51,777 bases of DNA from Escherichia phage FritzSarasin (MZ501069), one strand, 5' to 3'; counted from the stretch's first letter, positions 35,103 to 47,770 are shown. Numbers and translations are program-made. Notes: a model not told the origin generated them from the letters alone.

Positions 35103-35123
35103 GTTTTAACAAAAAATGCTATT
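35103..35123 (-). promoter_or_regulatory. conserved promoter-module motif copy (leftward)
   Basis: Minus-strand reading AATAGCATTTTTTGTTAAAAC + GCCCGGCCTAGTGTCGGG + TATAT; nearly identical to the inverted copy at 31859. Confidence 0.6.
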
Positions 35124-35239: not shown

Positions 35240-35635
35240 TCATGTGATATTGAATTTACGGCGCAGTGCTTCAAGATCTTGTCTATTAGCTTTTGCCTGG
35301 AACAATTCATCATCGCCCATCTCCCCTATTCTAGCCATATCCCTGATCCAGTCGTTGCGCATACCATCCAGGCTATACAATTCGAATCCGAAAGGCCGCT
35401 TTGACGATCCTTTGGACCAGTATTTACCGCAGACCCCATCTATATAGCCAGCCGTCATCATTCTTGCGCAAAATTCCTTAGATGCAAGGCTGGCGAACAT
35501 TCGCGGCGTAAGTCCGGCGGCCCGTGCGAGCCGCTCACATTCTCTATGATGATAGATAAATTTGGCTATGTGCTGCCTGTTAAACCAGTCGTATGACTCA
35601 CACCATTTATACAGATCAAGCAAAAACATAATCAT
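35240..35635 (-). CDS. hypothetical protein, coupled to upstream P-loop ATPase
   Basis: About 131 aa; start overlaps stop of the ATPase gene (ATGA); no recognisable motif. Confidence 0.5.
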   Translation of the reverse strand: MIMFLLDLYKWCESYDWFNRQHIAKFIYHHRECERLARAAGLTPRMFASLASKEFCARMMTAGYIDGVCGKYWSKGSSKRPFGFELYSLDGMRNDWIRDMARIGEMGDDELFQAKANRQDLEALRRKFNIT

Positions 35636-37212
35636 CCCAGCAGTATTGGATTGACAAAAATAACACCATTAATCACACAAACATAATTTCTTTCTTCCAG
35701 CATTGGCAGCAAGTGCCCTTCTATCCTCTTCATTACGCCAGCTTGACCAACGAAAGGTTTTACCTTTCTCGCTGATTCGTACAGGGCGCGAATATTCAGA
35801 ATCCCTTTATTAGCCTTGCCGTGTCTAGTGATCAATTCAATCAATTTGCCCATTTCAGCATCATCACCAGCATAACCAGAAGCATTGGCGGCGCTAATGT
35901 ATGTTTTGCTCAATTCCTGAAACATGATCAGCGCCTCTTGCATTGTTTCCACGTCGATCTCTTTCGACTTCTGCGGGTATCCAGCAGGATTAAACCAGTT
36001 GCGGATAACATGCAGGACGGAAGCAAGCCTGATCACCTGTTTATCCATTTTACCCAGCGCACCGCGTAACATTGTATGAGAATACTTTCCGCCGTCTGCA
36101 AGATGCGGTTCCATATCCTGGCGAGCAATGTTGAGCACTCGCATAGCTGAACGGCTTATTTTCAGCGATATATTTGATTCGCTCATGATGTTATGCACCA
36201 ATTGATAATATTGGGCCTTCAATTCAGGATCCACCGCCTCATAGGTAGAATCACCATTTTCATCAATGAATGAGCGACGGCCTAAGAATGATTCCTCACG
36301 GACCAACAAAAAGCGCTCACTCACACCGATACCGCGCGATCCAGCGTCCATGATTCCGCTTATCGTTTCATCCTGGGCTATAACGCTCATACATCCAAGT
36401 GCGCGAAAACTCATGTTATTGTCAGCATTAGCACGGGCAATTGATACGTGACCATTATCCCACGCCTTAAGCACTAGCTCGCTGTTAGTCTTCCTTTCGC
36501 TATTGGCATAGGTCAAGCCTAACAGGCTGTTAATACTTGTTGCTTCGTCAGATATTACGGCAAAGTTACCTTGCTTGTTGTTGATTTTCGCCAAGCCTTC
36601 TGGAGTGGTATCTGAAACAGGGAAAGTTATATCACACATCTTTTCCAGCTTCTCCTCCAGATCCTCTTTTTCCTGGTATAGAGATTCCATATCAGCGCCT
36701 GATCTTTCGCTTTTCATCTCCTTTGCAAGACCTGCCAACTTTGCCTGTATTTTCTTTCTTTCCTTGCGGCGTTGCTCGTTGATCTTCTCAACTTCCGCAA
36801 TCATCGGAGCAATAGCCATACTGTTGATCGCAGATTTACCAGTTGACGGCGGCTGGCTTGTAACTACGTAAAGCGCAGTCGGCTGATCGGTTCCGTGATA
36901 GTCAACTGTAAAGCGCCCAAGCATAGCGGCAGAAATGCAGCCGATAAAGTGCATGTAAGCCGATGATTCAGGGAATTGAACTGATCGCGCAATGCTGCGT
37001 GATAACTTGCCGACAACATCAATATCATTACCAAGAGAAATTACGGGGTAGCGATCGTGACCGCTATTTACATCCTTTACGTCGCCCCAAAAGCTGGACG
37101 ACTGGCGATAGCCGTTAGCCTGAATTGATACGCGAACTGGCGAAAGGTTCTGGCTTTCAGCCATAGCGATTATTTGCTGTGGAGTTAATTTGTTCGTTTC
37201 TAATGAAAACAT
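35632..37212 (-). CDS. P-loop NTPase of unknown function (DUF3987-like, unverified)
   Basis: 526 aa; Walker A-like PPSTGKS and Walker B-like AVISDEA; charged coiled-coil segment; long C-terminal domain with no recognisable motif. Confidence 0.6.
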   Translation of the reverse strand: MFSLETNKLTPQQIIAMAESQNLSPVRVSIQANGYRQSSSFWGDVKDVNSGHDRYPVISLGNDIDVVGKLSRSIARSVQFPESSAYMHFIGCISAAMLGRFTVDYHGTDQPTALYVVTSQPPSTGKSAINSMAIAPMIAEVEKINEQRRKERKKIQAKLAGLAKEMKSERSGADMESLYQEKEDLEEKLEKMCDITFPVSDTTPEGLAKINNKQGNFAVISDEATSINSLLGLTYANSERKTNSELVLKAWDNGHVSIARANADNNMSFRALGCMSVIAQDETISGIMDAGSRGIGVSERFLLVREESFLGRRSFIDENGDSTYEAVDPELKAQYYQLVHNIMSESNISLKISRSAMRVLNIARQDMEPHLADGGKYSHTMLRGALGKMDKQVIRLASVLHVIRNWFNPAGYPQKSKEIDVETMQEALIMFQELSKTYISAANASGYAGDDAEMGKLIELITRHGKANKGILNIRALYESARKVKPFVGQAGVMKRIEGHLLPMLEERNYVCVINGVIFVNPILLG

Positions 37213-37264
37213 TCGTTAGCTTCTCCTTTGTGGGCCGTAAATTTTAACGGCCCAATACTACCCC

Positions 37265-37285
37265 GTTTTGTCAAAAAGTGCTATT
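37265..37285 (-). promoter_or_regulatory. conserved promoter-module motif, variant with TTGACA (leftward)
   Basis: Minus-strand reading AATAGCACTTTTTGACAAAAC, 22 nt, TAAAAT inside hairpin GGGCCG...CGGCCC; ATPase ATG 74 nt downstream. Confidence 0.55.
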
Positions 37286-37502
37286 TGATCCGCTCTATTG
37301 CAACCAGAAGTCGATCAGGCTGGCGGTCGCTGTAGCATTCTCCTGTAATCCCATCCTTAAACGTAAAGTAAAGCGCCTTATGATATGAAAAACCAATCAG
37401 CCAACCTACCGCCGTTTTTTTGATGGGCCTGACTATATCGCCAGGCTTGAAAGTCTTTGTGGTAGAATTCGTTACTTTGTAACGGTTTTCACTGTTTATC
37501 AC
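37281..37502 (-). CDS. hypothetical small protein (KxGD motif)
   Basis: 73 aa; contains FKPGDIV motif. Confidence 0.5.
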   Translation of the reverse strand: MINSENRYKVTNSTTKTFKPGDIVRPIKKTAVGWLIGFSYHKALYFTFKDGITGECYSDRQPDRLLVAIERIK

Positions 37503-37885
37503 AGATATTTGCCCTCAAACAGATAACAGCCGCCAGCAGAGAATCCGACCTCTTCACGGTACAGGTTCCAGCGGTCGCCGCACTCATCAAAAACATAACC
37601 CGCAACGCTTCCAAGCGGTCGCCCTTTCTCGATCTGGTATCGCTTGCCCTGCTTAAAGTGCTTTTTGCACGGCATGTTATGATCTACAAACGTGCAAAGA
37701 ACGGTTTTTGTGTTAATGGCGCGGTAATCATCTCGGTTTGCTGGAATCCAGCGACTACCCTTAACAAGCGTCTTAACTTGGAACTCTTCCACCTCGATCA
37801 CATCATCACTTCCTGCAATCTTCTGATAAACCGTTTTAAAACGGCCTTTCATCAATACGTTGGTTTCATTACAGATAACATTCAT
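37499..37885 (-). CDS. hypothetical protein
   Basis: 128 aa; driven by motif module at 37939-37959. Confidence 0.55.
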   Translation of the reverse strand: MNVICNETNVLMKGRFKTVYQKIAGSDDVIEVEEFQVKTLVKGSRWIPANRDDYRAINTKTVLCTFVDHNMPCKKHFKQGKRYQIEKGRPLGSVAGYVFDECGDRWNLYREEVGFSAGGCYLFEGKYL

Positions 37886-37938
37886 GATCAGATCTCCTTT
37901 GTTTGTTCGATGTGATTATGCCAGGTTTTTACACCTGG

Positions 37939-37959
37939 CTTTTAACAAAAAGTGCTATT
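37939..37959 (-). promoter_or_regulatory. conserved promoter-module motif copy (leftward)
   Basis: Minus-strand reading AATAGCACTTTTTGTTAAAAG + hairpin CCAGGTGTAAAAACCTGG + CATAAT. Confidence 0.6.
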
Positions 37960-38662
37960 TTGAGTTTGACTCAAAGACGGCGCGAGCAAATCCGCGCGGA
38001 GTGAGGGAGCGGATCATCTTTGTGCGCGATGACTTACCGCCAGTTTTGGCCCAGCCTGGATTATCTTTGTCTTCCTCTTTCGGCAGGATTAAAGCGCGCG
38101 GAGGAATAACAAAGCCGTTGCCAGTCCAGAGGCACGTTTTCTTAAAATAGCGATCCCGTGCCGGAATAATATCAGGGAAGTCGGGATGTTTATCATCTTC
38201 CGGCAGATAGCCAGCGTAATCGCACGGATGGAACGTATAATCAGGCTTTCGCCATAACGTTGACAACTTGCCAACCGGATTTTCGATCATGTAAGGAACA
38301 CCGAAATAATCAGCTATATCAGCCGCGATTCTGCAAGTGTCGGCGGCCTCATCCTGGAACGATGGATTCTCAAGGCGTTTTTTGGCCCAATGGCGAGATC
38401 CGCTATTTGCAAGGTCGGTGCATGGTGGGAAGGCCATAATAAAATCAGGATTGCCCCACTCATTATTGATTGCCTTAACATAAAAAGCATCATCAATCCA
38501 GACGTTAACGTATTCGATATTCTCATGCTGTATGCGCACTGACTGGTAATCACCGTGATCGCCGCCGTCAGCATTAAAGCAAATGCACTTATAGCCATTA
38601 TCAGCCCAATCTTTAACAGCTTTACCAGATCCATCAAATAGGGAGAATATTAAACCTTTATA
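37955..38662 (-). CDS. compact DNA (cytosine-5)-methyltransferase-like protein
   Basis: About 236 aa from ATG 38662 (MYKGLIFSLFDGSGK); motif I FSLFDGSG, PC motif AFPPCTD, ENV-like MIENPVG; shorter than typical C5 methyltransferases. Confidence 0.55.
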   Translation of the reverse strand, partial: YKGLIFSLFDGSGKAVKDWADNGYKCICFNADGGDHGDYQSVRIQHENIEYVNVWIDDAFYVKAINNEWGNPDFIMAFPPCTDLANSGSRHWAKKRLENPSFQDEAADTCRIAADIADYFGVPYMIENPVGKLSTLWRKPDYTFHPCDYAGYLPEDDKHPDFPDIIPARDRYFKKTCLWTGNGFVIPPRALILPKEEDKDNPGWAKTGGKSSRTKMIRSLTPRGFARAVFESNSK

Positions 38663-38675
38663 CATCGTAATTACC

Positions 38676-38900
38676 TCAAAACGGAAAACAGCGCGCACAA
38701 CCATGATCGAAATCGCATCCACAATCATTAACAATCATAGTGGGATCTGCAAATATTGCGCTTGATTCAAGATCCATATCCATATCACCTAAAGCCTCAT
38801 CAAGAGTCTTAATTTTATATGCCACTTCAAGCGCCGCCTCTTTATTTAGTCCGGCATCTTCTGCCATTTGAAGGCGCTCAAAAAAACCGTCCTGACTCAT
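38676..38900 (-). CDS. hypothetical acidic protein with C-terminal cysteine cluster
   Basis: 74 aa; about 16 acidic versus 5 basic residues; ends CGCDFDHGCARCFPF. Confidence 0.5.
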   Translation of the reverse strand: MSQDGFFERLQMAEDAGLNKEAALEVAYKIKTLDEALGDMDMDLESSAIFADPTMIVNDCGCDFDHGCARCFPF

Positions 38901-39013
38901 CGCATAACTCCCTTAATAACAGCCAAGATAATAGCCAGGCCAGCAGCAGTAACCAAAAATCCAACCGCGCCAATAATCGAATAAAAAAAGAAATCAATAG
39001 CTTTATCTATCAT
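38897..39013 (-). CDS. putative small membrane peptide (not in ORF track)
   Basis: 38-aa hydrophobic ORF MIDKAIDFFFYSIIGAVGFLVTAAGLAIILAVIKGVMR with RBS GAGGTGA; stop overlaps next ATG. Confidence 0.3.
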   Translation of the reverse strand: MIDKAIDFFFYSIIGAVGFLVTAAGLAIILAVIKGVMR

Positions 39014-39055
39014 TTTTCACCTCATTTAAAAGGCGGCAAAACGCCGCCAGATTAA

Positions 39056-39283
39056 TTAAAGAGCGCGCCAACTTTGAATATAGAAAGCGTTTTCTTCCAG
39101 TAATTCTTTTACCTGATCTTTATTGTATTTGCGCACCTTACCGCCTGGATGGATACCAATAAGATAGCCGCCTTTGCCCTCGGTGATAGTGATTTGGCTA
39201 ATTCCGCAGGACTTATCAAGTTTTACAGCCACGCGGTGATGAGCGTCAATAGTTGCCATAATGTTTAAAACTTTTGCTTTCAT
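39056..39283 (-). CDS. hypothetical protein
   Basis: 75 aa ORF in leftward operon. Confidence 0.5.
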   Translation of the reverse strand: MKAKVLNIMATIDAHHRVAVKLDKSCGISQITITEGKGGYLIGIHPGGKVRKYNKDQVKELLEENAFYIQSWRAL

Positions 39284-39391
39284 TTAAATATCCTCAATTG
39301 AAATATGAATGACGTGGCGCTCTTTTTCCGTCGCCGCCGTAATGGTCATTTGCAACCGCCACCATCCAAGCGTTTTTGAAAATAAATAGCC

Positions 39392-39604
39392 TCATTTCTT
39401 ATTTTTCAGCTTAAATTTATGACCTGGAACACCAGCGCCAATATACCCATCGTTGTATTCCATTAAATAAAGGTGAAGACCATTATCTGAAATTAAATGA
39501 GGATCTTCTTTGATATTTCCCATTAGCGGGTATTCTTTTCCGCGCGTAAATTTCCAAATTGAGTTATAAGTTTCTACGCATTTAAGTTTTAATTGCTTTG
39601 CCAT
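39392..39604 (-). CDS. hypothetical small protein (FxRGxEY motif)
   Basis: 70 aa; contains WKFTRGKEY. Confidence 0.5.
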   Translation of the reverse strand: MAKQLKLKCVETYNSIWKFTRGKEYPLMGNIKEDPHLISDNGLHLYLMEYNDGYIGAGVPGHKFKLKNKK

Positions 39605-39885
39605 TATGCGATCCCAGTTACGTTAAAACTTACAGCCCTTGTTGCGCTAAATACATAAGCATCAACAGCGCCGCCAAATACACGAATTTTACCCTGGCCG
39701 TACTGCGCATTCATATTTCGCCAAACCGTTCTATTAGAGCAGAATGCGCTACCAGTCTTAATAAGCATATCCATCTCTTTTCTTAGATCGCGATAGTCAA
39801 GCCAGAATCTAAAGGCGCGCTGTTTAATTCGCGCCGCCTTGATTTTTTCTCTTGCGCTATTGAAATCATTCTTTTCGTATGCCAT
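39604..39885 (-). CDS. hypothetical protein
   Basis: 93 aa; start overlaps upstream stop. Confidence 0.5.
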   Translation of the reverse strand: MAYEKNDFNSAREKIKAARIKQRAFRFWLDYRDLRKEMDMLIKTGSAFCSNRTVWRNMNAQYGQGKIRVFGGAVDAYVFSATRAVSFNVTGIA

Positions 39886-40082
39886 TAAATGATCTCCATG
39901 TATGTTTCAAAGCCATTTAACTTGAACAGGCCGTTTTCACATTTGCGCACGTTCCAAGTTAGCCCTGAGTGGTACGCCTCCATATCATCAAGGTCAATGG
40001 TGATTTCAGCACCTTTCTTAAATAAACCTTTTTCGTGAGACTTGTCGCGCTTAACAACTTTAACATCAACCTGATTTTCCAT
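39885..40082 (-). CDS. hypothetical small protein (FKKGAE motif)
   Basis: 65 aa; internal repeat GLFKKGAE / GLFKLNGFE. Confidence 0.5.
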   Translation of the reverse strand: MENQVDVKVVKRDKSHEKGLFKKGAEITIDLDDMEAYHSGLTWNVRKCENGLFKLNGFETYMEII

Positions 40083-40137
40083 CTTTAAATCCTCGTTTGT
40101 TGTCGATGCGGTAAATATACCAACTTACCGCATACGA

Positions 40138-40158
40138 CTTTTAACAAAAAGTGCTTTT
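40138..40158 (-). promoter_or_regulatory. conserved promoter-module motif, variant copy (leftward)
   Basis: Minus-strand reading AAAAGCACTTTTTGTTAAAAG + hairpin GCGGTAAGTTGGTATATTTACCGC (TATATT in loop). Confidence 0.55.
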
Positions 40159-40565
40159 TATTCCGTGGTGTCGATAGTGATTGGCCGCAACTCCTGGAGC
40201 GTCACACGATGATCGCGAATAATTGATTCTTTATCTTTCAGGCCATTGTAGCAATTTTGCGCTCTCTCTTTAAATCGGCCTGCATAACAAAGGGTGGCCC
40301 GTCCATTCTCGCGATTCGTTGCAATTACGCGGTAAATAGGCCGTAATTCCTCTTCAAATACTGGTCGGAAAGCGTAACTTTCAAAGCCAGTGCCATAGAA
40401 TCGGTTATCATCGTCACGCGAGATGTAAAGAGGTTCGCGATAATCATCAAGAACATACTCATCGCCATATTTTTCATCGCGCAATACGGCGTATTCAGCG
40501 CCTTTTGTGAAAGTCCATGCGTGACTGGTGTTTTCGCCAATGAATTTAAGAGACTGCGATACCAT
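40158..40565 (-). CDS. hypothetical protein (FTKGAEY motif)
   Basis: 135 aa; contains WTFTKGAEY. Confidence 0.55.
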   Translation of the reverse strand: MVSQSLKFIGENTSHAWTFTKGAEYAVLRDEKYGDEYVLDDYREPLYISRDDDNRFYGTGFESYAFRPVFEEELRPIYRVIATNRENGRATLCYAGRFKERAQNCYNGLKDKESIIRDHRVTLQELRPITIDTTE

Positions 40566-40579
40566 TTTTTGATCTCCTG

Positions 40580-40807
40580 TTAGTAAGTGATTGAAGAAAT
40601 ATCATCAAAGCCCTGGAATTCCGCATTCCATACCAGGAAGTTTGAGAGATTCTCACAACGATACCAGCCGCCGCTCAATTCCATGTATGTAGCATAACCG
40701 CCAGGGATAGCCTTAACAGCGTAGCGCTTATGGTTGCGAGTGATGAAAATCGCAAAACGTTTGTCGTTTGTCTGGTCGATTGCTTTCTGGTTGGCGACTA
40801 CTGACAT
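40580..40807 (-). CDS. hypothetical protein
   Basis: 75 aa; driven by motif module at 40864-40885. Confidence 0.55.
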   Translation of the reverse strand: MSVVANQKAIDQTNDKRFAIFITRNHKRYAVKAIPGGYATYMELSGGWYRCENLSNFLVWNAEFQGFDDISSITY

Positions 40808-40863
40808 TTTGAAAATCCTCTGTTTCGTTTCGATGCGCTTACTATACCAATCAGCAGCGCATC

Positions 40864-40885
40864 GTTTTTAACAAAAAGTGCTATT
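40864..40885 (-). promoter_or_regulatory. conserved promoter-module motif copy (leftward)
   Basis: Minus-strand reading AATAGCACTTTTTGTTAAAAAC + hairpin GATGCGCT...AGCGCATC with TATAGT. Confidence 0.6.
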
Positions 40886-41148
40886 TAGTCCAGGAATTCG
40901 ATTTCACGCTCTCCAGTTAACGGATCCACAAGCCAGAATCCGAGCGCTTCGCCGTGAACACCGCCATAGAATCCAAGAGCCGTCAGATCTTCACCTTTAA
41001 CGAATACCAGGTTTCCGCTACGGCTTACGTGAGACACGTTAACGATAACCGGAAATGTGCGATCCTTAAATGCTGGCCGCAGGGCGTAACACCCGTTATT
41101 GAGCAAACGTGCTTTGCGCTTAACTGGAATAGGTGCATTAATTTTCAT
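40885..41148 (-). CDS. hypothetical protein (FVKGEDL motif)
   Basis: 87 aa. Confidence 0.55.
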   Translation of the reverse strand: MKINAPIPVKRKARLLNNGCYALRPAFKDRTFPVIVNVSHVSRSGNLVFVKGEDLTALGFYGGVHGEALGFWLVDPLTGEREIEFLD

Positions 41149-41160
41149 GGTTATTACTCC

Positions 41161-41586
41161 TTATCGTAAAGATTTAAAGACGTATAGTTTATTGCGGTAA
41201 CTATATATCCGCATTGTTATTTCTCGCAGTGCAATATATTCCTTCCTGTTTTCCGGCAGACTGGCGAGCAATAACAGGCAGTATTTATAAGCGCGGTCAA
41301 GATTCCTTTCCGTGCCCCTGCAATATCCCTTGTTGCGCCTAGAGCGGTACAGCCATAACAATTTCTTGAACATTTCAGATACGCCCATACAGATCACAGA
41401 CTTCGTTGATAAAACAGCGTTGAGACTCTTTATCCTGTTTCTCAAACATCGCACGGCACTCATAGCGGTGATTATGCACGATGACAACAACCATATTTCA
41501 GGCGCTGACGGGTGACGCGCGGAAGCGTCGCAGATTGAAACATCCATACCCATCTCATGTGCTTTCTTGATCACATCCAACATTTT
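41161..41586 (-). CDS. hypothetical protein
   Basis: About 141 aa from ATG 41586 (RBS AGGAG); unusual composition, coding status less certain. Confidence 0.4.
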   Translation of the reverse strand, partial: KMLDVIKKAHEMGMDVSICDASARHPSAPEIWLLSSCIITAMSAVRCLRNRIKSLNAVLSTKSVICMGVSEMFKKLLWLYRSRRNKGYCRGTERNLDRAYKYCLLLLASLPENRKEYIALREITMRIYSYRNKLYVFKSLR

Positions 41587-41837
41587 TTCTTCTCCTGCAA
41601 TAAGCAAACATCATTGATAAAATCAGCACGGCCCTTAATGTTGCTGATGTGGAACGTCTTTTCAGCGTACAGGCCATCACCTTCAATCACGATCATTACG
41701 CGAGTCGGTTTATTCACGGGCGCACACGAAAAGAGTGGTCGCGCCGGAAGAAATTTAGTAGCCACATCCAGGTTAGCCCTGGCGGCCCTGCAAAACGCCT
41801 CCGCCAGATCCAAATCATTTTCGGTAATCACCGCCAT
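41571..41837 (-). CDS. hypothetical protein
   Basis: 88 aa; start overlaps upstream stop. Confidence 0.45.
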   Translation of the reverse strand: MAVITENDLDLAEAFCRAARANLDVATKFLPARPLFSCAPVNKPTRVMIVIEGDGLYAEKTFHISNIKGRADFINDVCLLQEKKKCWM

Positions 41838-42109
41838 TACTTCTTGATCTCCTCACTGATAAATTTCAGCACCTGACGCAAGAAAACCTCGTTGTTGATG
41901 GTCGCTGGCAATTCTTCTTTCACTTCTTGCGGCAGATAGATATTGCCGTGCCAGGTCAAGCAATCGTAGTTGATACGATAAGAGCAAAGCCACTCGCAAT
42001 CGTTATCTGCTTCCCAAATGCAGAGTTGCAGAACATCGCCAAAATCTTCAACAGTCAGATCCAGACCGTGACGCTTAGCGAAGTTGAAAGTGGTTTTGCT
42101 GATGTTCAT
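41837..42109 (-). CDS. hypothetical protein
   Basis: 90 aa; first gene of leftward unit from the 42168 module. Confidence 0.55.
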   Translation of the reverse strand: MNISKTTFNFAKRHGLDLTVEDFGDVLQLCIWEADNDCEWLCSYRINYDCLTWHGNIYLPQEVKEELPATINNEVFLRQVLKFISEEIKK

Positions 42110-42167
42110 TGCTATCTCCTGAGCGGTTCGTTTCGATGTGTGTAATGTACCCGATCAGACGGCCTGA

Positions 42168-42188
42168 GTTTTAACAAAAAGTGCTATT
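42168..42188 (-). promoter_or_regulatory. conserved promoter-module motif copy (leftward)
   Basis: Minus-strand reading AATAGCACTTTTTGTTAAAAC, about 22 nt, TACATT; ATG about 80 nt downstream. Confidence 0.55.
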
Positions 42189-42742
42189 TGACGGTTAGCG
42201 CCAGGATTGTGATCGAAATAATCAAAAGTAATCATTCGTAATCAAATCAAGTCAAAATGATGATTGCCTTTGCAAATTTGATGAGAAAAGTAATCACGTT
42301 TAATCATTGGTTGCAGGGGAGATAGTGAAACCTTCCCCTCTTGCCTCACTTTTTTGCCTGGCTGTCAGTGGTTGTTGTCTTTTGTTCACCCCTGTTACCG
42401 ATTTCAGGCGGCGTGTTTCCGCGCGGTTTTCCGGTGTAGCGAAAACGGAAAAAACAAAGAAAATCCTTTATAATACATTGAAAATAAAGATTATTTATTT
42501 ATATATATCTATAATGTTTTCTTTTTGTTCTCACTGTTACAGTGCTTTTTGTTGGTTATGGTGTGGTTGTGTGTGGGCATATATGGATAGTTGCGCGCGC
42601 GGCGGATTGCATATGTATATATACTTTTTCCGGCGGATTGCGTTAACAGCGTGAACAGAAAAATAACAGCCGTGAAATCAATAACTTGCGCATGATTTTG
42701 TAGTTTTTTGATATTGGTAACGTTTTGAATACAACAAAAACA

Positions 42743-42770
42743 TTGACACGCACCAAATAGCTTTTATAAT
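42743..42770 (+). promoter_or_regulatory. consensus sigma70 promoter (TTGACA-N16-TATAAT)
   Basis: Perfect -35 and -10 hexamers about 30 nt upstream of ATG 42802. Confidence 0.65.
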
Positions 42771-42801
42771 GCGCCAACAGTCAACAACTGGAGGAAAGGA
42801 A

Positions 42802-43266
42802 ATGGAACAGAAGACCACTAAGGACTATTGCGATTGGCTTCGCGAGCTTGGTCGCCGCCTGGCTAGTGGCGATATTGAAGAGTATAAAATGTCACTAATT
42901 GACCTGGCCGGAATGTTAAGCGGTGACGACTGCTACAAGATCACGCGCAGTTCATCCTACAGCCGGACCATTATCAACCGCGTTCCAGAAGTAAGGGCCG
43001 CAGGTCGGGTAAGTATCAAGGTCGAGGAAACGGAAGATGATAAATTTTACGTTTTCCGCATGGTGCGCGAATCGAAAAGGAAAATCATCACACCCGAAGA
43101 ATTGCCAGCCATAAAGGCAAGGGCGATCAAAAAGTTTGCCGATCGCTTACTGGCAGCAATCCCGAACATCGTGGACCTGGAGGGTGATAAACTGGCTGGA
43201 GCTTGTGAGGGCGTAAGCCGCTACCAGGATATGATTCGCGAAATCATCAAAGAGGAGGAGCAATAA
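42802..43266 (+). CDS. hypothetical early protein
   Basis: 154 aa from ATG 42802 (RBS GGAGGAAAGG); track start 42769 lies inside the -10. Confidence 0.55.
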   Translation: MEQKTTKDYCDWLRELGRRLASGDIEEYKMSLIDLAGMLSGDDCYKITRSSSYSRTIINRVPEVRAAGRVSIKVEETEDDKFYVFRMVRESKRKIITPEELPAIKARAIKKFADRLLAAIPNIVDLEGDKLAGACEGVSRYQDMIREIIKEEEQ

Positions 43267-43526
43267 TGAAAAAGGCATTAATCGGCGTTTTGGCGGCAAT
43301 GACACTCCTGACCGGATGCGAAAAGGCATCAGAATCAACGGTTGTCGTAGGCGTGGAGTCAGATTTCAAAGTCGGTCGCCTGTTCACTGTTGACGGATGC
43401 ACAGCATACAGATTCTATGATAACGGTCGCGCGATCTATTACACCAATTGCAAAGGCGCAACGGATAGCACGTACAACAGCGGAAAGAACGTAATGCACC
43501 AGCAAGTCACAACAGATATTAAATAG
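43266..43526 (+). CDS. putative lipoprotein
   Basis: 86 aa; signal peptide with lipobox LLTGC; stop TAG embedded in the next motif copy. Confidence 0.6.
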   Translation: MKKALIGVLAAMTLLTGCEKASESTVVVGVESDFKVGRLFTVDGCTAYRFYDNGRAIYYTNCKGATDSTYNSGKNVMHQQVTTDIK

Positions 43527-43542
43527 CACTTTTTGTTAAAAC
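43522..43542 (+). promoter_or_regulatory. conserved promoter-module motif copy (rightward)
   Basis: AATAGCACTTTTTGTTAAAAC + hairpin GCCAGGCGCAAAGCCTGGC + CATAAT; ATG 77 nt downstream. Confidence 0.6.
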
Positions 43543-43598
43543 GCCAGGCGCAAAGCCTGGCATAATAGCCTCATCGAAACGAGATTGAGGAAACAAAA

Positions 43599-43784
43599 AT
43601 GGCACGTCGCATCACCAAAGACCTTAAAGTCCTGAACAAAGAAAACGTAGTTAAAATCCTAGTTATCTGGGGCTACAACGAAGAAACAGCAAAGCAGAAG
43701 GTAGAGGCGGGTTATGACCTGGCTGTAAAAGCAATGCCAAACGACGACGCCAAAGGCATTGCAAACTATGTAGCTTTCTTTTAA
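43599..43784 (+). CDS. hypothetical small protein
   Basis: 61 aa with RBS GAGG. Confidence 0.5.
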   Translation: MARRITKDLKVLNKENVVKILVIWGYNEETAKQKVEAGYDLAVKAMPNDDAKGIANYVAFF

Positions 43785-43799
43785 TTAGCAGGTGAATAA

Positions 43800-43985
43800 A
43801 TGAAAACGAAATTAGTCCATAAATCAGAAATCAAGATCGGCGATACTGTGATTCACAACGGAGAGCTTAGAACGGTTGGCAAAGAGTCAATAAGCCACGA
43901 TGAATTTATGGGGATCTTGTTGTTCGGTGACTCTTATCGTCTTGGTTACAAGATGGTTGAGCTTGTGGAAGAAGTGAAATTCTAA
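43800..43985 (+). CDS. hypothetical small protein
   Basis: 61 aa; stop TAA embedded in the next motif copy. Confidence 0.5.
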   Translation: MKTKLVHKSEIKIGDTVIHNGELRTVGKESISHDEFMGILLFGDSYRLGYKMVELVEEVKF

Positions 43986-44005
43986 ATAGCACTTTTTGTT
44001 AAAAC
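43985..44005 (+). promoter_or_regulatory. conserved promoter-module motif copy (rightward)
   Basis: AATAGCACTTTTTGTTAAAAC then CCAGGCATAAT. Confidence 0.55.
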
Positions 44006-44084
44006 TCAAAAACGATAACCAGGCATAATAAATCACATAGGGCGGCACGGCGTCGCCCAGTTAAACCAATCAGGAGAAAGCACC

Positions 44085-44978
44085 ATGTTAAAACTTGCTG
44101 ACATTAAATTCCCGATCACCTTCGAATCTCGTGGTGTTGGTCATTACGTTTTTACCGATGAGAAAACATGCCATAACGTTTGGTTGCACAGCGATAAGTT
44201 AAGCCCATCAACAATGGAGATTCAGCACTTTATTGATGCGCATAATCAGCACTACAACTCAATCCGTGACTACGGCTACGCAATGCCAGGCTACACATGC
44301 TTGCACTACAAGCCATATAAGGGCCAGGTGTTACCAGTGCGCTCACCGGAACGTGCAGAGATTCCGATGGTCCACATGAAAACCTGCGACTACAAAAAGC
44401 TGTGGTGCTTAAGTGTGGACAATATCAAGTATCCGATCACGTTCTACACGGTTGGTAATTCAACGATTCGCTTCACATCGCGCGACAATGGCGTTTATAG
44501 CGATGGTACGAAATCAGAGTTGAAAGTTGATTTCTTTGTCAACGGTCACAACAAATTCAATCCGCACAACGAAGAGGATAAAGTGTACTACGTGGAAGAC
44601 ATTACAAAACACTTGTTTGGAGAAACTCCATTCGGCGGCGGAAAGACGTCAATTCAAAAAATCATTGGCGAGGAGATCCACAAAGCGGCTGCCGAAATGA
44701 AAGCGCCTGGAGGCTGGCGTATTGATAAGAGCGCCTTTGCAAATCAAGAAATCGTAACGCAGGGCGCGATTGAAGATATGCCAGTTGCAGCCACGCTAAA
44801 AGGAGTCCGGCTTGATGATGGTGTGTGGTTTGAAGTAACGGCCACACCAAAGACGATCGAGATTCATGATGATGTTGTTATCCTCCTGCTTCACTACGGC
44901 GGCACTAAAAATCGGACTGTTGCAGGTGAGATCAGCATCAAGCGCGGAACGATGGTTAAGTGGAAGGTGAAGATTTGA
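44085..44978 (+). CDS. hypothetical protein with internal tandem repeat
   Basis: 297 aa; N-terminal repeats IKFPITFESRGVGHYVFTDEKT and IKYPITFYTVGNSTIRFTSRDNG. Confidence 0.6.
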   Translation: MLKLADIKFPITFESRGVGHYVFTDEKTCHNVWLHSDKLSPSTMEIQHFIDAHNQHYNSIRDYGYAMPGYTCLHYKPYKGQVLPVRSPERAEIPMVHMKTCDYKKLWCLSVDNIKYPITFYTVGNSTIRFTSRDNGVYSDGTKSELKVDFFVNGHNKFNPHNEEDKVYYVEDITKHLFGETPFGGGKTSIQKIIGEEIHKAAAEMKAPGGWRIDKSAFANQEIVTQGAIEDMPVAATLKGVRLDDGVWFEVTATPKTIEIHDDVVILLLHYGGTKNRTVAGEISIKRGTMVKWKVKI

Positions 44979-45054
44979 GTTTGTTCACTGCGGCGCACGT
45001 CGCCGCATGGATCGGATTGTTTGCCTACCTGTTTAGCTTTTATTGAGGTGAGAG

Positions 45055-45207
45055 ATGGCTACCTGGATTTTGCTGATTCTTATGATTGATGGCGGCGTTG
45101 ACCATATCGAAATGAATAGCCAGCAATCTTGCATTGAGGCACGAGAACAGATCAAGAACGACAACAGGTTTTATGCGTACACTCACACGCTATGTATTAA
45201 GAAATAG
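45055..45207 (+). CDS. putative small membrane peptide (not in ORF track)
   Basis: 50-aa ORF with RBS GAGGTGAGAG; hydrophobic N-terminus; stop TAG embedded in the next motif. Confidence 0.35.
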   Translation: MATWILLILMIDGGVDHIEMNSQQSCIEAREQIKNDNRFYAYTHTLCIKK

Positions 45208-45223
45208 CACTTTTTGTTAAAAC
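45203..45223 (+). promoter_or_regulatory. conserved promoter-module motif copy (rightward)
   Basis: AATAGCACTTTTTGTTAAAAC + GGGGCCAGG TATAAT GGCC; ATG 74 nt downstream. Confidence 0.6.
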
Positions 45224-45276
45224 TCAAATGTGGGGCCAGGTATAATGGCCTCACTTTCAACGAAGGAGATAAAACG

Positions 45277-45507
45277 ATGTACATTAAAAAGAAGATGAAA
45301 TGCGTTTCCGTTAACTATGCTTGCTCTGGTATGTTCAAGCCTGGCGAAATCTATACAGCGCAAAAACTGAAATCATCAACCGGATCTTTTTACGTGAGCA
45401 ATAGTAAGGGGCATCGCATGTTCCTGAACGGCGGCGAAGGCACTAAGGTTATGGCACACGCTATGGTAATGGCTGAATTTGAGGAAGTGAAAGATGAAAA
45501 CAAATAA
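45277..45507 (+). CDS. hypothetical small protein (FKPGEIY motif)
   Basis: 76 aa from ATG 45277 (RBS AAGGAG); track start 45214 lies inside the promoter module. Confidence 0.5.
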   Translation: MYIKKKMKCVSVNYACSGMFKPGEIYTAQKLKSSTGSFYVSNSKGHRMFLNGGEGTKVMAHAMVMAEFEEVKDENK

Positions 45508-45715
45508 TCGCGTCAAGCACAGGTTTACTGATAACCACGGCGACGCGATTGATGTATACAAGTTCGGCGATCGCGTGTTTATTGATGGCACGTTTGAAGG
45601 TGGGCGCAGGCCGGATTTTAGGTCGATACTTACCGTTGACCAAGTGCGCAAGCTGGCAGATAAGTTAAATGATCTGGCAGATGAAATAGAATACAAGCAA
45701 ATCCATTTTAATTGA
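45494..45715 (+). CDS. hypothetical small protein
   Basis: 73 aa; overlaps upstream gene. Confidence 0.5.
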   Translation: MKTNNRVKHRFTDNHGDAIDVYKFGDRVFIDGTFEGGRRPDFRSILTVDQVRKLADKLNDLADEIEYKQIHFN

Positions 45716-45726
45716 TAGGTTTGATA

Positions 45727-46269
45727 ATGAAAAAATACACTTTCGAACTGTGGGGCAAAAAGTACGAATTAATCACCAGCAAGCCGATTGTTATCGTTGA
45801 CCTGGACGGCACACTATCGGACGGATCGCATCGTTTGCATTTGCTGCCAACTGAAAACTTGCACCTTACGGAATCGTGGCGCGAGTTTAACAGGGCCGCC
45901 GCCGGAGATTCACCTATTAAAAGCACTATCGCGGTTATTAACGGTTTATGGGTGTCGGGATTTGCCATCGTCATCTTGACCGGACGCAGCGACGAGGTTC
46001 GCTATGAAACCTGCAAATGGTTGAATGAGAACGGCGTGAAGTTTGACGAAATCATCATGCGCCGCCAGGAGGACAACCGAAAGGATACGGTTATCAAAGA
46101 AGAAGCCTTGCGCGCTATTGGCCTGGACAACATTGTTTGCGCCTTTGACGATTCGCCGAACGTGGTTAAGCACTTCCGCAGCCTGGCAATCACAACCTAT
46201 CAGGTCACGGAATACGACAAGCCGCACGCTCACCTGCAATCTCACGGCGTGGAGGAGTTGCAGAAATGA
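45727..46269 (+). CDS. HAD-superfamily phosphatase (nucleotidase / polynucleotide 3-phosphatase-like)
   Basis: About 180 aa; HAD motif I IVIVDLDGTLSDG, motif II ILTGR, C-terminal FDDS. Confidence 0.6.
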   Translation: MKKYTFELWGKKYELITSKPIVIVDLDGTLSDGSHRLHLLPTENLHLTESWREFNRAAAGDSPIKSTIAVINGLWVSGFAIVILTGRSDEVRYETCKWLNENGVKFDEIIMRRQEDNRKDTVIKEEALRAIGLDNIVCAFDDSPNVVKHFRSLAITTYQVTEYDKPHAHLQSHGVEELQK

Positions 46270-46475
46270 TCCTGAATGTAGCATATGCTAACCCTCGCGG
46301 CTGCAATATATACGGCTTTAAGGTTGGCGCGATGGTCAACGCCAGGATAAACGAAAAAGGCGTATTAGTTGTCAAGTCCCCTAAAACTGGCATGGATATG
46401 CGCATCAAGGAGAACGGCGGAAGATTGTTTATCAGGTCAATATCTGGTCAAACGCTCGCAACGTTCACAAAATAG
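46266..46475 (+). CDS. hypothetical small protein
   Basis: 69 aa; stop TAG embedded in the next motif copy. Confidence 0.5.
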   Translation: MILNVAYANPRGCNIYGFKVGAMVNARINEKGVLVVKSPKTGMDMRIKENGGRLFIRSISGQTLATFTK

Positions 46476-46491
46476 CACTTTTTGCAAAAAC
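46471..46491 (+). promoter_or_regulatory. conserved promoter-module motif copy (rightward)
   Basis: AATAGCACTTTTTGCAAAAAC + hairpin GGGCTTGCGGTATAGTAAGCCC. Confidence 0.6.
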
Positions 46492-46546
46492 AGATTATCG
46501 GGCTTGCGGTATAGTAAGCCCATCGACAACGAAAGAGGAAGCGGCG

Positions 46547-46846: not shown

Positions 46847-46861
46847 CACTTTTTGTTAAAA
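46842..46861 (+). promoter_or_regulatory. conserved promoter-module motif copy (rightward)
   Basis: AATAGCACTTTTTGTTAAAA + hairpin CGGCTTGCGGTATAGTAAGCCC. Confidence 0.6.
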
Positions 46862-46917
46862 TCAACTTTACGGCTTGCGGTATAGTAAGCCCATCAACAA
46901 CAAACGAGGATTAAATC

Positions 46918-47768: not shown

Positions 47769-47770
47769 TC

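What the first reader, a model, noticed from the sequence alone, without database searches (positions are those of the whole stretch)
37281..42109. Leftward array of 15 small genes with no recognisable functions
Fifteen ORFs of 38-141 aa on the minus strand, organised in short units each headed by a conserved promoter module (37939, 40138, 40864, 42168). Apart from the methyltransferase-like gene, none shows a motif I can assign. This is the layout expected for early host-takeover or anti-defence genes, and is the most likely place for an undescribed function in this genome.
Basis: inference. Interest (0 to 1): 0.6.

Follow-up and report, generated by a model that had tools for sequence, protein, structure and literature searches.

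The report
Accessory small-gene arm of T1-like phage
This is the variable block of small accessory genes of a known T1-family coliphage (nearly identical to SECphi27 and atuna); its genes and repeated promoter boxes are real, one gene belongs to a family already studied as a trigger of a bacterial immunity protein, and the rest have no known function, so it is an ordinary though useful place to look for new phage-host functions.

Summary
The window is a Warwickvirus (Drexlerviridae), 98.7% identical here to phage atuna and 98.1% to SECphi27. The leftward array is real, but it holds 16-17 genes, not 15. The "141-aa" ORF comes from a 1-bp deletion that fuses two genes. A conserved 33-aa gene was missed. 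All ORFs tested except g6, which had no informative pair, show purifying selection.

The four promoter modules are at the stated sites. They are not array-specific: about 19 copies occur in the genome and 134 distinct copies in relatives. Each has a 17-nt box, a fixed 19-nt spacer that often forms a hairpin, and a -10 box. There is no -35 at canonical spacing.

Functions are not all blank. g7 is a full-length Pfam Gp54 member ("phage antiviral trigger") and is identical to SECphi27 Gp19, which was tested and does not activate CapRelSJ46. g13 is a compact C5-methyltransferase-like protein outside Pfam. g1 has an RWD-like fold and g14 an SH3-like barrel. No anti-defence function is shown.

The array combines a conserved core with swappable cassettes. 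Cassette junctions are enriched at the promoter boxes, resembling the PeSL cassettes of T4-type phages.

Verdict: a known kind of phage accessory region, with "early" expression supported only indirectly. Interest is modest.

The parts
42110..42187 (-). Promoter module P1: 17-nt box 42169-42185, 19-nt spacer, -10 TACATT 42144-42149, leader CATCGAAACGAAC, SD; heads g1-g4
41837..42109 (-). g1, 90 aa, acidic (pI 4.7). RWD/UBC-like alpha-beta4-alpha fold. phrog_6147. The family also occurs in T-even, RaK2-like and lambdoid early regions.
   Evidence: dN/dS 0.05
41571..41837 (-). g2, 88 aa, sporadic accessory gene with no family match
   Evidence: SECphi27 gp24
41375..41583 (-). g3a, orthologue of SECphi27 gp23 (69 aa). 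It is frameshifted in this window by loss of one A at 41496-41498, which creates the spurious 140-aa ORF 41161-41583.
41161..41373 (-). g3b, 70-aa very basic ORF (pI 10.3). It is intact in the window, SECphi27 and atuna but unannotated there. Its coding status is only weakly supported.
   Evidence: one pair, dN/dS 0.17
40885..41148 (-). g4, 87 aa; matches the C-terminal part of phrog_9595
40808..40884 (-). Promoter module P2: box 40866-40882, -10 TATAGT 40841-40846, with a hairpin whose loop holds the -10; heads g5-g6. It is the left junction of the swappable cassette.
40580..40807 (-). g5, 75 aa, phrog_11449; part of the swappable cassette
40158..40565 (-). g6, 135 aa, two domains. The N-terminal domain is a paralogue of g9. 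The C-terminal domain is homologous to Bas11 gp53 (phrog_6503).
40083..40157 (-). Promoter module P3: box 40139-40155, -10 TATATT 40114-40119, strongest hairpin (-21.5 kcal/mol); heads g7-g13. It is the right junction of the swappable cassette.
39885..40082 (-). g7, 65 aa, Pfam PF25180 Gp54 family. It is identical to SECphi27 Gp19 and 53% identical to Gp54 of Bas11 (PDB 9axb).
39604..39885 (-). g8, 93 aa, basic, sporadic, no family match
39392..39604 (-). g9, 70 aa, paralogue of the g6 N-terminal domain; absent from SECphi27
39056..39283 (-). g10, 75 aa, core gene (36 of 46 loci), phrog_4344
39032..39048 (-). Intrinsic-terminator-like hairpin GGCGGCGTTTTGCCGCC followed by TTTTAAA, between g10 and g11
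38897..39013 (-). g11, 38-aa hydrophobic peptide (GRAVY 1.63); its stop overlaps the g12 start
38676..38900 (-). g12, 74 aa, very acidic (pI 4.05, net charge -11). C-terminal CxC-x5-CxxC motif. Core gene that co-occurs with g13.
37955..38665 (-). g13, 236 aa, compact C5-cytosine-methyltransferase-like protein with invariant FDGSG, FPxC, ENPV and RSLTPRG motifs; phrog_757
37886..37958 (-). Promoter module P4: box 37940-37956, spacer hairpin GCCAGGT/ACCTGGC, -10 CATAAT 37915-37920; heads g14-g15
37499..37885 (-). g14, 128 aa, core gene. N-terminal SH3-like beta-barrel plus a conserved C-terminal domain. phrog_2684.
37281..37502 (-). g15, 73 aa, GTG start overlapping the g14 stop; core gene, phrog_12725
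37213..37284 (-). Promoter module P5 (box variant with TTGACA, 37266-37282) heading the DUF3987 helicase gene 35632-37212; marks the downstream end of the array

Best explanation
The segment is the leftward accessory-gene arm of a Warwickvirus, a T1-family phage close to SECphi27 and atuna.

Layout (shown). It carries 16-17 genuine small genes in four transcription units that run towards the DUF3987 helicase gene. Each unit starts with a regulatory cassette shared across the whole family. The cassette has an invariant 17-nt box at about -48 to -32, a 19-nt variable spacer that often forms a hairpin, a -10 box that often has an extended TG, a CATCGAAACGAAAC leader and a Shine-Dalgarno sequence. 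One internal terminator-like hairpin follows g10.

Expression (partly shown, partly inferred). Host RNA polymerase alone can read this type of promoter. That was shown for the Bas11 orthologue and is inferred here. The genes are therefore probably expressed from the start of infection.

Mosaic structure (shown). The array combines a conserved core (g1, g7, g10, g12-g15) with exchangeable cassettes (g2-g6, g8-g9b).

Shuffling mechanism (inferred). The repeated boxes supply short homology at which cassettes are swapped or deleted. This is comparable to the PeSL cassettes of T4-type phages.

Products (shown as family or fold assignments):
- g7: a Gp54-family small protein, in the allele that does not trigger CapRelSJ46.
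- g13: a compact C5-methyltransferase-like enzyme.
- g12: an acidic protein with a cysteine-knuckle motif, which co-occurs with g13.
- g1: an RWD-like protein.
- g14: a protein with an SH3-like barrel.
- g11: a 38-aa membrane peptide.

Function (inferred). Most products are small binding modules that modulate host or defence proteins, and g13 protects phage DNA from restriction. None of this is shown.
For: - Identity of the phage and its annotation.
- ORFs, ribosome-binding sites and purifying selection.
- Module statistics: 21 matches against 0.47 expected.
- Module in relatives: 134 distinct copies, with a spacing of exactly 19 nt in 125 of them.
- Hairpins: mean MFE -8.6 against -4.9 kcal/mol for shuffles, and 48% with z < -2.
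- The same module precedes Bas10 gene 57 and Bas11 gene 54.
- PMC11578894 shows that the native Bas11 promoter expresses Gp54 from pBR322 in uninfected MG1655. Escape mutations just upstream of the gene lower that expression. Deletions of gene 54 plus its neighbours are viable.
- Core versus flexible gene matrix.
- The g5-g6 unit (40866..40158) is replaced by an unrelated 480-bp two-ORF cassette in six loci, with both junctions at the boxes.
- 7.9% of 969 homology breakpoints lie within 5 bp of a box, against 1.2% for random positions.
- Gene assignments: g7; g13; g1; g14.
Against: - No transcript or timing data exist for this phage or a close relative in the searched literature.
- The box lies 22 nt from the -10 if TTGTTA is read as a -35, so the promoter is not canonical. 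A phage or host factor may act on it.
- Only about 10-12% of mosaic breakpoints lie near boxes. Most lie at gene boundaries.
- Many of the six loci that share the cassette swap probably descend from a single event.
- Hairpins are absent or weak in about half of the modules.
- No product has a demonstrated function for the phage.
Confidence: 0.72

Rival explanations
1. The 17-nt box is the binding site of a dedicated regulator, either phage-encoded (for example the annotated transcriptional regulator at window ~26769-27245) or a host protein. On this reading the units are activator-dependent middle genes, or early genes that are later repressed, rather than constitutive early promoters.
For: - The box is nearly invariant across phages whose helicases are only 63-80% identical.
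- It sits at a fixed distance of 19 nt from the -10.
- It does not provide a -35 at 16-18 nt. The simple sigma-70 scan does not call these sites.
- atuna carries a putative transcriptional regulator.
- T4-type phages have analogous middle-promoter cassettes (PmSL with a Mot box; PMC4122927).
Against: - The Bas11 gene 54 promoter, which carries the box, expresses protein in uninfected cells (PMC11578894). An activator is therefore not required.
- Many -10 boxes have an extended TG, which can replace a -35.
- Repression by a factor is not excluded.
Confidence: 0.25
2. The conserved genes next to the helicase (g10, g12-g15) are parts of the phage's DNA replication or modification machinery. They would not be host-takeover or anti-defence factors. 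Only the sporadic genes would be true accessory cargo.
For: - g12, g13, g14 and g15 occur in 32-45 of 46 loci and have low dN/dS (0.075-0.14).
- g12 is 81% identical between the window and Bas11, about as conserved as the helicase.
- They are read in the same direction as the DUF3987 helicase, with no terminator between them and it.
Against: - There are no matches to replication protein families.
- g14 and g12 are confined to T1-like phages.
- A methyltransferase is more readily explained as protection from restriction.
- BASEL found no simple link between methyltransferase genes and restriction resistance (PMC8594841).
Confidence: 0.3
3. Many of the short ORFs are chance open frames in a transcribed leader or spacer region and are not genes.
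For: - Several are under 75 aa and have no family match (g2, g8, g3b).
- The 140-aa ORF is indeed spurious.
Against: - dN/dS is below 1 for every ORF with an informative pair, including the 33-aa and 38-aa ones.
- 12 of 16 match PHROG families.
- Ribosome-binding sites or coupled stop/start codons are present throughout.
- GC skew is consistent with minus-strand coding.
Confidence: 0.05

Closest known systems
Gp54 of phage Bas11 and Gp19 of SECphi27 (Pfam PF25180; PDB 9axb, 9erv; Zhang et al., Nature 2024, PMC11578894)
   Same: g7 matches the whole Pfam model (130.7 bits against a cut-off of 27). It is 53% identical to Gp54 of Bas11 and 100% identical to Gp19 of SECphi27. It sits in the same array behind the same promoter module. 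It is small and, by analogy, non-essential.
   Different: g7 has V7 and A25 where the activating Bas11 allele needs A7 and I25. The identical SECphi27 protein did not activate CapRelSJ46. What the family does for the phage is unknown.
PeSL (promoter-early stem-loop) cassettes in hyperplastic regions of T4-type phages (PMC2839356, PMC4122927)
   Same: Both are repeated composite regulatory motifs (promoter, stem-loop, Shine-Dalgarno) placed in front of small ORFs of unknown function in variable regions. Insertions, deletions and replacements between close relatives have junctions at the motifs.
   Different: - Here the conserved element is a 17-nt box at -48 to -32, with no canonical -35.
- The hairpin lies inside the promoter, either in the spacer or around the -10. 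In PeSLs it lies upstream as a terminator.
- The hairpin has no U-tract.
- The phage family is unrelated.
- Mini-circle excision has not been tested.
Phage accessory regions as defined by Silas et al. (bioRxiv 10.1101/2023.04.06.535777)
   Same: It is a cluster of short, fast-changing, non-essential genes flanked by conserved genes. Some members are sensed by host immunity.
   Different: The text of that paper does not mention Drexlerviridae, and its supplementary lists were not checked. No counter-defence activity is known for any gene in the present array.
Dcm-type C5-cytosine DNA methyltransferases (Pfam PF00145; DNMT3B catalytic domain)
   Same: g13 has motif I (FDGSG), the catalytic Pro-Cys motif (FPPC), the ENV motif (ENPV) and a motif IX-like RSLTPRG. 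The only PDB profile hits are DNMT3B.
   Different: g13 has only 236 aa and a very short region where the target-recognition domain should be. It falls below the Pfam threshold. Only 1 of 42 diverse relatives touches PF00145. Its substrate and target site are unknown.

Membership tests
Pfam PF25180 (phage antiviral trigger protein Gp54), for g7 | Full-length match to the family model above the gathering score | tested here: met
   E 1.7e-38, 130.7 bits against a cut-off of 27; residues 1-65 match model positions 1-65
Pfam PF25180 (phage antiviral trigger protein Gp54), for g7 | Sequence relationship to the solved Gp54 of Bas11 | tested here: met
   phmmer E 3.7e-16 to 9axb_A; 53% identity over 66 residues
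Pfam PF25180 (phage antiviral trigger protein Gp54), for g7 | Ability to activate CapRelSJ46 (residues A7 and I25 needed in Bas11 Gp54) | tested here: not met
   g7 has V7 and A25 (alignment). It is identical to SECphi27 Gp19, which caused no CapRelSJ46 toxicity in PMC11578894. The activity itself cannot be tested here.
Pfam PF25180 (phage antiviral trigger protein Gp54), for g7 | Small beta-barrel fold | not tested
   No model of g7 was made. The fold is inferred from 53% identity to the crystal structure.
C5-cytosine DNA methyltransferase (PF00145), for g13 | Match to the family profile at the curated threshold | tested here: not met
   No Pfam or NCBIfam hit. 1 of 42 relatives hits PF00145, at E 0.0067.
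C5-cytosine DNA methyltransferase (PF00145), for g13 | Catalytic and cofactor motifs I (FxGxG), IV (PC) and VI (ENV) | tested here: met
   F10-D11-G12-S13-G14, F79-P80-x-C82 and E128-N129-P130-V131 are invariant in 15 diverse homologues. The profile aligns motifs I-IV to DNMT3B at E 0.16.
C5-cytosine DNA methyltransferase (PF00145), for g13 | Target-recognition domain and DNA methylation activity | not testable with these tools
   Only about 75 residues lie between the ENV region and the motif IX-like segment. No methylome data are available.
PeSL-like mobile regulatory cassette | Repeated conserved promoter motif in front of small ORFs in variable regions | tested here: met
PeSL-like mobile regulatory cassette | Associated stem-loop | tested here: inconclusive
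   48% of 119 distinct modules fold with z < -2. The stem-loop lies inside the promoter and lacks a U-tract, unlike the upstream terminator of PeSLs.
PeSL-like mobile regulatory cassette | Insertion, deletion or replacement junctions coincide with the motif | tested here: met
   The g5-g6 unit is replaced with both junctions at the boxes. Enrichment within 5 bp of a box is 6.6-fold. The breakpoints are not phylogenetically independent.
Canonical sigma-70 early promoter | -35 hexamer 16-18 nt upstream of a -10 hexamer | tested here: not met
   TTGTTA lies 22 nt from the -10. The consensus scan does not call these sites. The -10 is good and often preceded by TG.
Canonical sigma-70 early promoter | Activity with host RNA polymerase alone | not testable with these tools
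   Indirect only. The Bas11 gene 54 promoter, which carries the same module, is active in uninfected E. coli (PMC11578894).
Known anti-defence or defence-related protein families | Match of any array protein to a described family | tested here: not met
   Pfam, PHROGs (all 'unknown function' except the methyltransferase), NCBIfam, PADLOC and PDB gave nothing beyond g7 and g13.

The most novel reading that the evidence does not exclude
The 17-nt box, fixed spacer and hairpin form a dedicated, family-wide mobile regulatory cassette of Drexlerviridae. It would be a counterpart of T4 PeSLs with a different architecture: an upstream box at -48 to -32, no -35, and a hairpin inside the promoter. This cassette would both drive early expression and assemble and reshuffle the array. 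Its cargo would include at least one undescribed inhibitor of host defence. The best candidates are the acidic cysteine-knuckle protein g12 paired with the compact methyltransferase g13, and the RWD-like g1, which is shared with T-even, jumbo and lambdoid early regions.
Probability: 0.3. Interest if true: 0.55.

Novelty: new member of a known kind. Interest (0 to 1): 0.33.

Why it matters
SECphi27 and the BASEL T1-like phages are standard tools for studying bacterial immunity. This array is where one trigger of such immunity (Gp54) was found.

A gene-by-gene map helps in choosing candidates for defence-inhibition screens and in designing phage deletions. The map separates core genes from swappable ones and flags the frameshifted gene and the missed 33-aa gene. 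It also shows which genes share folds or recur in other phage families.

The promoter-box cassettes give a concrete, testable account of how T1-like phages gain and lose such genes. The searched literature does not appear to describe them.

None of this changes the general picture of phage accessory regions.

Tried and rejected
1. Are g6N, g9, g14 and g15 paralogues of the Gp54 barrel? A shared F-K-x-G-x-E-Y-like motif suggested this.
   - g6N and g9 are related (phmmer E 6e-6; same BLAST cluster).
   - hhalign gives only a weak link between the g6/g9 family and the g14 C-terminal domain (probability 29%, E 6e-4). It gives nothing to g7.
   - Rejected as homology. Kept as a resemblance at fold level only.
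2. Family HMMs searched against all window ORFs found no further paralogues.
3. Rfam over the whole window gave no family.
4. PADLOC and NCBIfam gave no hits.
5. A sequence search of all array proteins against PDB gave only Gp54.
6. A literature search for the box sequence and for T1-family transcriptomes or promoter descriptions found nothing relevant.
7. The RAZR paper (PMC13017515) concerns SECphi27 Gp77 (Erf-like) and portal proteins, which lie outside this array.
8. The daunorubicin paper (PMC13250531) has no T1-family gene-level data.
9. The supplements of PMC11578894 do not give the coordinates of the Bas11 escape deletions.
10. The afdb50 fold library was unavailable.
11. Reading the spacer hairpins as intrinsic terminators was rejected. 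They lack a U-tract on the sense strand, and the 3' arm often lies upstream of the expected start site.

Full report
**Identity of the window**

The 4.9-kb segment is 98.7% identical over its whole length to Escherichia phage atuna. It is 98.1-98.8% identical to tonnikala and SECphi27, and 137 phage records match it. atuna and SECphi27 are Drexlerviridae, subfamily Tempevirinae, genus Warwickvirus. In every record the genes here are annotated 'hypothetical protein', apart from a DNA methyltransferase. The window is therefore a known type of T1-family coliphage. The array corresponds to SECphi27 gp12-gp25.

**Checking the observation: the ORFs**

The minus strand of 37281-42109 is filled with short ORFs. 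GC skew fits minus-strand coding from about 35 to 42 kb. I named the ORFs g1 to g15 in order of transcription.

| Gene | Coordinates | Length (aa) |
|---|---|---|
| g1 | 41837-42109 | 90 |
| g2 | 41571-41837 | 88 |
| g3 | 41161-41583 | 140 |
| g4 | 40885-41148 | 87 |
| g5 | 40580-40807 | 75 |
| g6 | 40158-40565 | 135 |
| g7 | 39885-40082 | 65 |
| g8 | 39604-39885 | 93 |
| g9 | 39392-39604 | 70 |
| g9b | 39294-39395 | 33 |
| g10 | 39056-39283 | 75 |
| g11 | 38897-39013 | 38 |
| g12 | 38676-38900 | 74 |
| g13 | 37955-38665 | 236 |
| g14 | 37499-37885 | 128 |
| g15 | 37281-37502 | 73 (GTG start) |

- Almost all have an AGGAG-like ribosome-binding site or an overlapping stop/start codon.
- dN/dS against diverged homologues in related loci is below 1 for every ORF with an informative pair. 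Medians include g1 0.05, g14 0.075, g12 0.10, g15 0.10, g13 0.14, g9b 0.18, g10 0.28 and g11 0.54. g6 had no informative pair.
- These are real genes, with two corrections.

*Correction 1: g3 is a fusion.* SECphi27, atuna and locus L039 have CTGAAAATATG where the window has CTGAAATATG, so one A is lost at 41496-41498. In those phages a 69-aa gene (SECphi27 gp23, atuna gp68) ends at the position of window 41375. It is followed by an intact 70-aa, very basic ORF (window 41161-41373) that nobody annotates. The window's 140-aa ORF joins the first 29 codons of the first gene to out-of-frame sequence and then to the second ORF. Whether the deletion is a real mutation or a homopolymer sequencing error cannot be decided here.

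*Correction 2: g9b was missed.* This 33-aa gene matches phrog_32259 at E 1e-19 and is conserved in 19 of 46 loci.

**Checking the observation: the promoter modules**

A TTGACA variant at 37266-37282 sits in front of the helicase gene.
- The box is not special to this array. The window has 21 matches with up to 3 mismatches against 0.47 expected by chance. About 19 of them have the full promoter-like context. Most lie in front of the non-structural gene blocks at 28-51 kb.
- In 47 related loci plus the window's array region I found 154 copies, 134 of them distinct. This includes phages whose helicase is only 63-70% identical.
- The consensus is aAATAGCACTTTTTGtTAAAAC, then a variable stretch, then tGGtATAaT, then CAtCGAAAcgAAa and a Shine-Dalgarno sequence.
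- The distance from the box to the -10 hexamer is exactly 19 nt in 125 of 134 copies.
- If TTGTTA is read as a -35 hexamer, it lies 22 nt from the -10. That is outside the working range, and the simple sigma-70 scan does not call these sites. Many copies have TG just upstream of the -10 (an extended -10).
- The 19-nt spacer and the bases after the -10 differ between copies but tend to form a hairpin. Over 119 distinct copies the mean folding energy is -8.6 kcal/mol, against -4.9 for shuffles, and 48% have z < -2. The stem lies either wholly in the spacer (P4: GCCAGGT...ACCTGGC) or around the -10 (P2, P3). It is not followed by a U-tract, so it is not an ordinary terminator.
- The one good terminator-like site in the array is GGCGGCGTTTTGCCGCC followed by TTTTAAA at 39032-39048, between g10 and g11.
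- The transcription units are therefore P1: g1-g4; P2: g5-g6; P3: g7-g10, terminator, g11-g13; P4: g14-g15; then P5: helicase.

**What is known about the genes: g7**

- g7 matches Pfam PF25180, 'Phage antiviral trigger protein Gp54', over its full length (E 1.7e-38, 130.7 bits against a cut-off of 27).
- Its only relative in the PDB is Gp54 of phage Bas11 (9axb, 9erv; E 3.7e-16).
- Zhang et al. (PMC11578894) showed that Gp54 of Bas11 is a 66-aa beta-barrel protein of unknown function. It binds the antitoxin domain of the fused toxin-antitoxin CapRelSJ46 and activates it.
- They also showed that the homologues from SECphi27 (Gp19), Bas5, Bas8 and Bas10 do not activate CapRelSJ46. The substitutions A7V or I25V abolish activation.
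- g7 is 100% identical to SECphi27 Gp19. It is 53% identical to Bas11 Gp54 and carries V7 and A25. It belongs to the family but is the non-triggering allele.
- The same paper reports that Gp54 is not essential and that escape phages with deletions of gene 54 and nearby genes are viable. The authors speculate that the protein may inhibit some other defence system.

**Evidence that the module is a promoter**

I fetched Bas11 (JohannLBurckhardt, MZ501085) and Bas10. Gene 54 of Bas11 and gene 57 of Bas10 are each preceded by the same box, 19-nt spacer, -10 (TATCAT) and leader. Zhang et al. cloned gene 54 'with its native promoter' in pBR322 and detected the protein in uninfected MG1655. Two escape mutations immediately upstream of the gene lowered its level. 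This is the only experimental evidence that bears on the module. A promoter of this type works with host RNA polymerase alone. That fits early expression but does not measure timing. I found no transcriptome or promoter study of T1-family phages, and no paper containing the box sequence.

**The other genes**

*General searches.* Pfam, NCBIfam, PADLOC and a PDB sequence search gave nothing else. PHROGs places 12 of the 16 ORFs in families of unknown function, and g13 in phrog_757, 'DNA methyltransferase'.

*g13.*
- It has no Pfam hit. Fifteen diverse homologues share invariant FDGSG, FPxC, ENPV and RSLTPRG segments.
- These correspond to motifs I, IV, VI and IX of C5-cytosine methyltransferases. 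That correspondence rests on established knowledge of the family.
- A profile of the homologues finds only DNMT3B catalytic domains in the PDB, weakly (E 0.16, motifs I-IV).
- The family is large, with 1195 clusters at 50% identity at E <= 1e-3. Only 1 of 42 diverse members touches PF00145, at E 0.0067.
- I file it as C5-methyltransferase-like. It is compact, with little room for a target-recognition domain, and its activity is untested.

*g12.*
- It lies just upstream of g13 and co-occurs with it (42 and 44 of 46 loci).
- It is very acidic (pI 4.05, net charge -11) and ends in CGCDFDHGCARC.
- It is unusually conserved: 66-99% identity among 97 homologues, all from T1-like contigs, with dN/dS 0.10.
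- A role as a partner of the methyltransferase or as a DNA mimic is only an inference from charge and position.

*g14.*
- It is found only in T1-like contigs, with 94 homologues and no Pfam domain.
- The AlphaFold model has mean pLDDT 75.7. The N-terminal 63 residues score above 90 and form an all-beta domain.
- The C-terminal half is the more conserved part and recurs with other N-termini.

*g1.*
- The model is confident (pLDDT 92, pTM 0.82). Its topology is helix, four strands, helix.
- Its viral relatives are all uncharacterised and include the jumbo phage RaK2.
- The family is not confined to T1-like phages. A 64-66% identical copy lies in a 168-kb T-even-like contig, among small ORFs upstream of a GmrSD_N-like gene and the Alt ADP-ribosyltransferase. 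A 43% identical copy lies in the operon of small genes downstream of the repressor gene of a lambdoid prophage of Photorhabdus.
- This placement supports the view that g1 is mobile early accessory cargo. It does not reveal its function.

*g6, g9 and g11.*
- g6 is a two-domain protein. Its N-terminal half is a paralogue of g9 (E 6e-6).
- Its C-terminal half is homologous to Bas11 gp53, the gene that follows gene 54 in Bas11.
- g11 is a 38-aa hydrophobic peptide.

**Mosaic structure**

A presence/absence matrix over 46 related loci shows a gradient.

| Gene | Loci with the gene (of 46) |
|---|---|
| g14 | 45 |
| g13 | 44 |
| g12 | 42 |
| g10 | 36 |
| g15 | 32 |
| g1 | 29 |
| g7 | 20 |
| g9b | 19 |
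| g9 | 12 |
| g6 | 11 |
| g4 | 9 |
| g11 | 8 |
| g8 | 6 |
| g3 | 3 |
| g2 | 2 |
| g5 | 2 |

- Bas11 keeps the order g1, g7, g6C-like, one unique gene, g10, g12, g13, g14, g15, helicase.
- SECphi27 lacks g9 and g9b.
- In six loci, including two that are about 97-98% identical to the window on both sides, homology stops exactly at 40866 (the end of the P2 box) and resumes at 40158 (just before the P3 box). The g5-g6 unit is replaced there by an unrelated cassette of about 480 bp. That cassette has its own spacer, -10 and leader and two other small ORFs.
- Over all pairs of loci, 7.9% of 969 homology breakpoints lie within 5 bp of a box, against 1.2% of random positions. Within 25 bp the figures are 12.4% against 3.0%.
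- The other breakpoints in the array fall at gene boundaries: 41841, 41596, 41143, 39880 and 39600.
- The breakpoints are not independent events, so the enrichment is indicative rather than a formal test.

**Comparison with known systems**

The arrangement matches what Arbiol, Comeau and Krisch described as PeSLs in T4-type phages. PeSLs are repeated promoter, stem-loop and Shine-Dalgarno cassettes in hyperplastic regions, with insertions, deletions and replacements at the cassettes (PMC2839356, PMC4122927). The present modules differ in three ways. The conserved element is an upstream box with no canonical -35. The hairpin lies inside the promoter rather than upstream as a terminator. The phage family is unrelated. 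The array also fits the general notion of phage 'accessory regions' (10.1101/2023.04.06.535777). I therefore class the finding as a new member of a known kind.

**How it most likely works**

*Shown*
- The genes are real and under selection.
- Four units are headed by a family-wide module.
- There is one internal terminator-like site.
- The array is a mosaic of core genes and cassettes, with one cassette swap bounded by boxes.
- g7 is the non-triggering Gp54 allele.
- g13 has methyltransferase motifs.

*Shown elsewhere for an orthologue*
- The module is active in uninfected cells.
- Gene 54 and its neighbours are dispensable.

*Inferred*
- The array is expressed early from host-polymerase promoters.
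- The boxes act as short homologies for cassette exchange.
- Most products are small binding modules aimed at host or defence proteins, and g13 (perhaps with g12) protects phage DNA.

*Main rival*
- The box could be a regulator's binding site. This is not excluded as far as repression is concerned.

**Verdict**

The interpretation as an early accessory or anti-defence region is plausible and partly supported, but no anti-defence function is shown. One gene is already in a described family. The region is not unique in the genome, because a larger rightward array of small genes starts at 42769. Interest is modest.

Noticed in passing
window, whole genome: box copies at 6718-6734(-), 10472-10488(-), 21101-21117(-), 28302-28318(+), 30791-30807(+), 31862-31878(+), 35104-35120(-), 43525-43541(+), 43988-44004(+), 45206-45222(+), 46474-46490(+), 46845-46861(+), 49654-49670(+): The promoter box is a genome-wide motif that heads most non-structural gene units. 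No good copy is co-oriented with the structural operon (plus strand, about 1-19.5 kb). Three copies lie on the opposite strand in or next to that block (6734, 10488, 21117). What those three drive is unclear.
   Followed up: partly
window 42186-42768: This is a 580-bp non-coding divergent region between the two small-gene arrays. It holds repeated TAATCA/GATTAC motifs, AT-rich palindromes around 42495-42514 and 42611-42623, a direct repeat CGGCGGATTGC at 42600 and 42631, and a perfect consensus sigma-70 promoter (TTGACA, 16 nt, TATAAT) at 42743-42770 on the plus strand. It may be a control region or an origin.
   Followed up: partly
window 42769-51777 (+), continuing into 1-1170: A second, larger rightward array runs into the terminase genes. 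It holds about 26 small genes of unknown function plus a polynucleotide kinase, and has six box-type promoters. It is at least as likely a place for undescribed functions as the array under review.
   Followed up: no
window 41496-41498: A one-base deletion in an A-run, unique to this window among the relatives compared, frameshifts the orthologue of SECphi27 gp23. It is either a real mutation or a homopolymer sequencing error.
   Followed up: yes
window 41161-41373 (-): A 70-aa very basic ORF (pI 10.3) is intact in the window, SECphi27 and atuna but annotated in neither of those records. The only informative pair gives dN/dS 0.17.
   Followed up: partly
L048 (Bas11, MZ501085) 4201-4395 and window 40158-40565: Bas11 gp53, the gene right after the CapRel trigger gene 54, is homologous to the C-terminal domain of g6. 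In the window this domain is fused to a g9-like domain and sits in the cassette just upstream of g7.
   Followed up: partly
L051 (168-kb T-even-like contig) 4001-4270; L054/L055 (Photorhabdus) 6001-6294: g1 homologues occur in a T-even hyperplastic region next to a GmrSD_N-like gene and the Alt ADP-ribosyltransferase. They also occur among small ORFs downstream of the repressor gene of a lambdoid prophage. The family moves between unrelated phage types.
   Followed up: partly
window 37955-38665 (g13) and proteins P0292-P0441: The compact C5-methyltransferase-like family has at least 1195 clusters at 50% identity in public data, yet it is essentially not covered by Pfam PF00145.
   Followed up: partly
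public records matched: Twenty records named as Campylobacter phages (host Campylobacter jejuni) match this coliphage array. Some relatives also carry evidently spurious product names for these small ORFs. Examples are 'translocation/assembly module TamB' for the 38-aa g11 homologue in SECphi27, and phosphoglucomutase or polyribonucleotide nucleotidyltransferase in JLBYU26.
   Followed up: no
window 35632-37212 (-) and 42769-43266 (+): The genes flanking the array match DUF3987 (the helicase-annotated protein, E 6e-44) and DUF7174 (E 4e-51).
   Followed up: no
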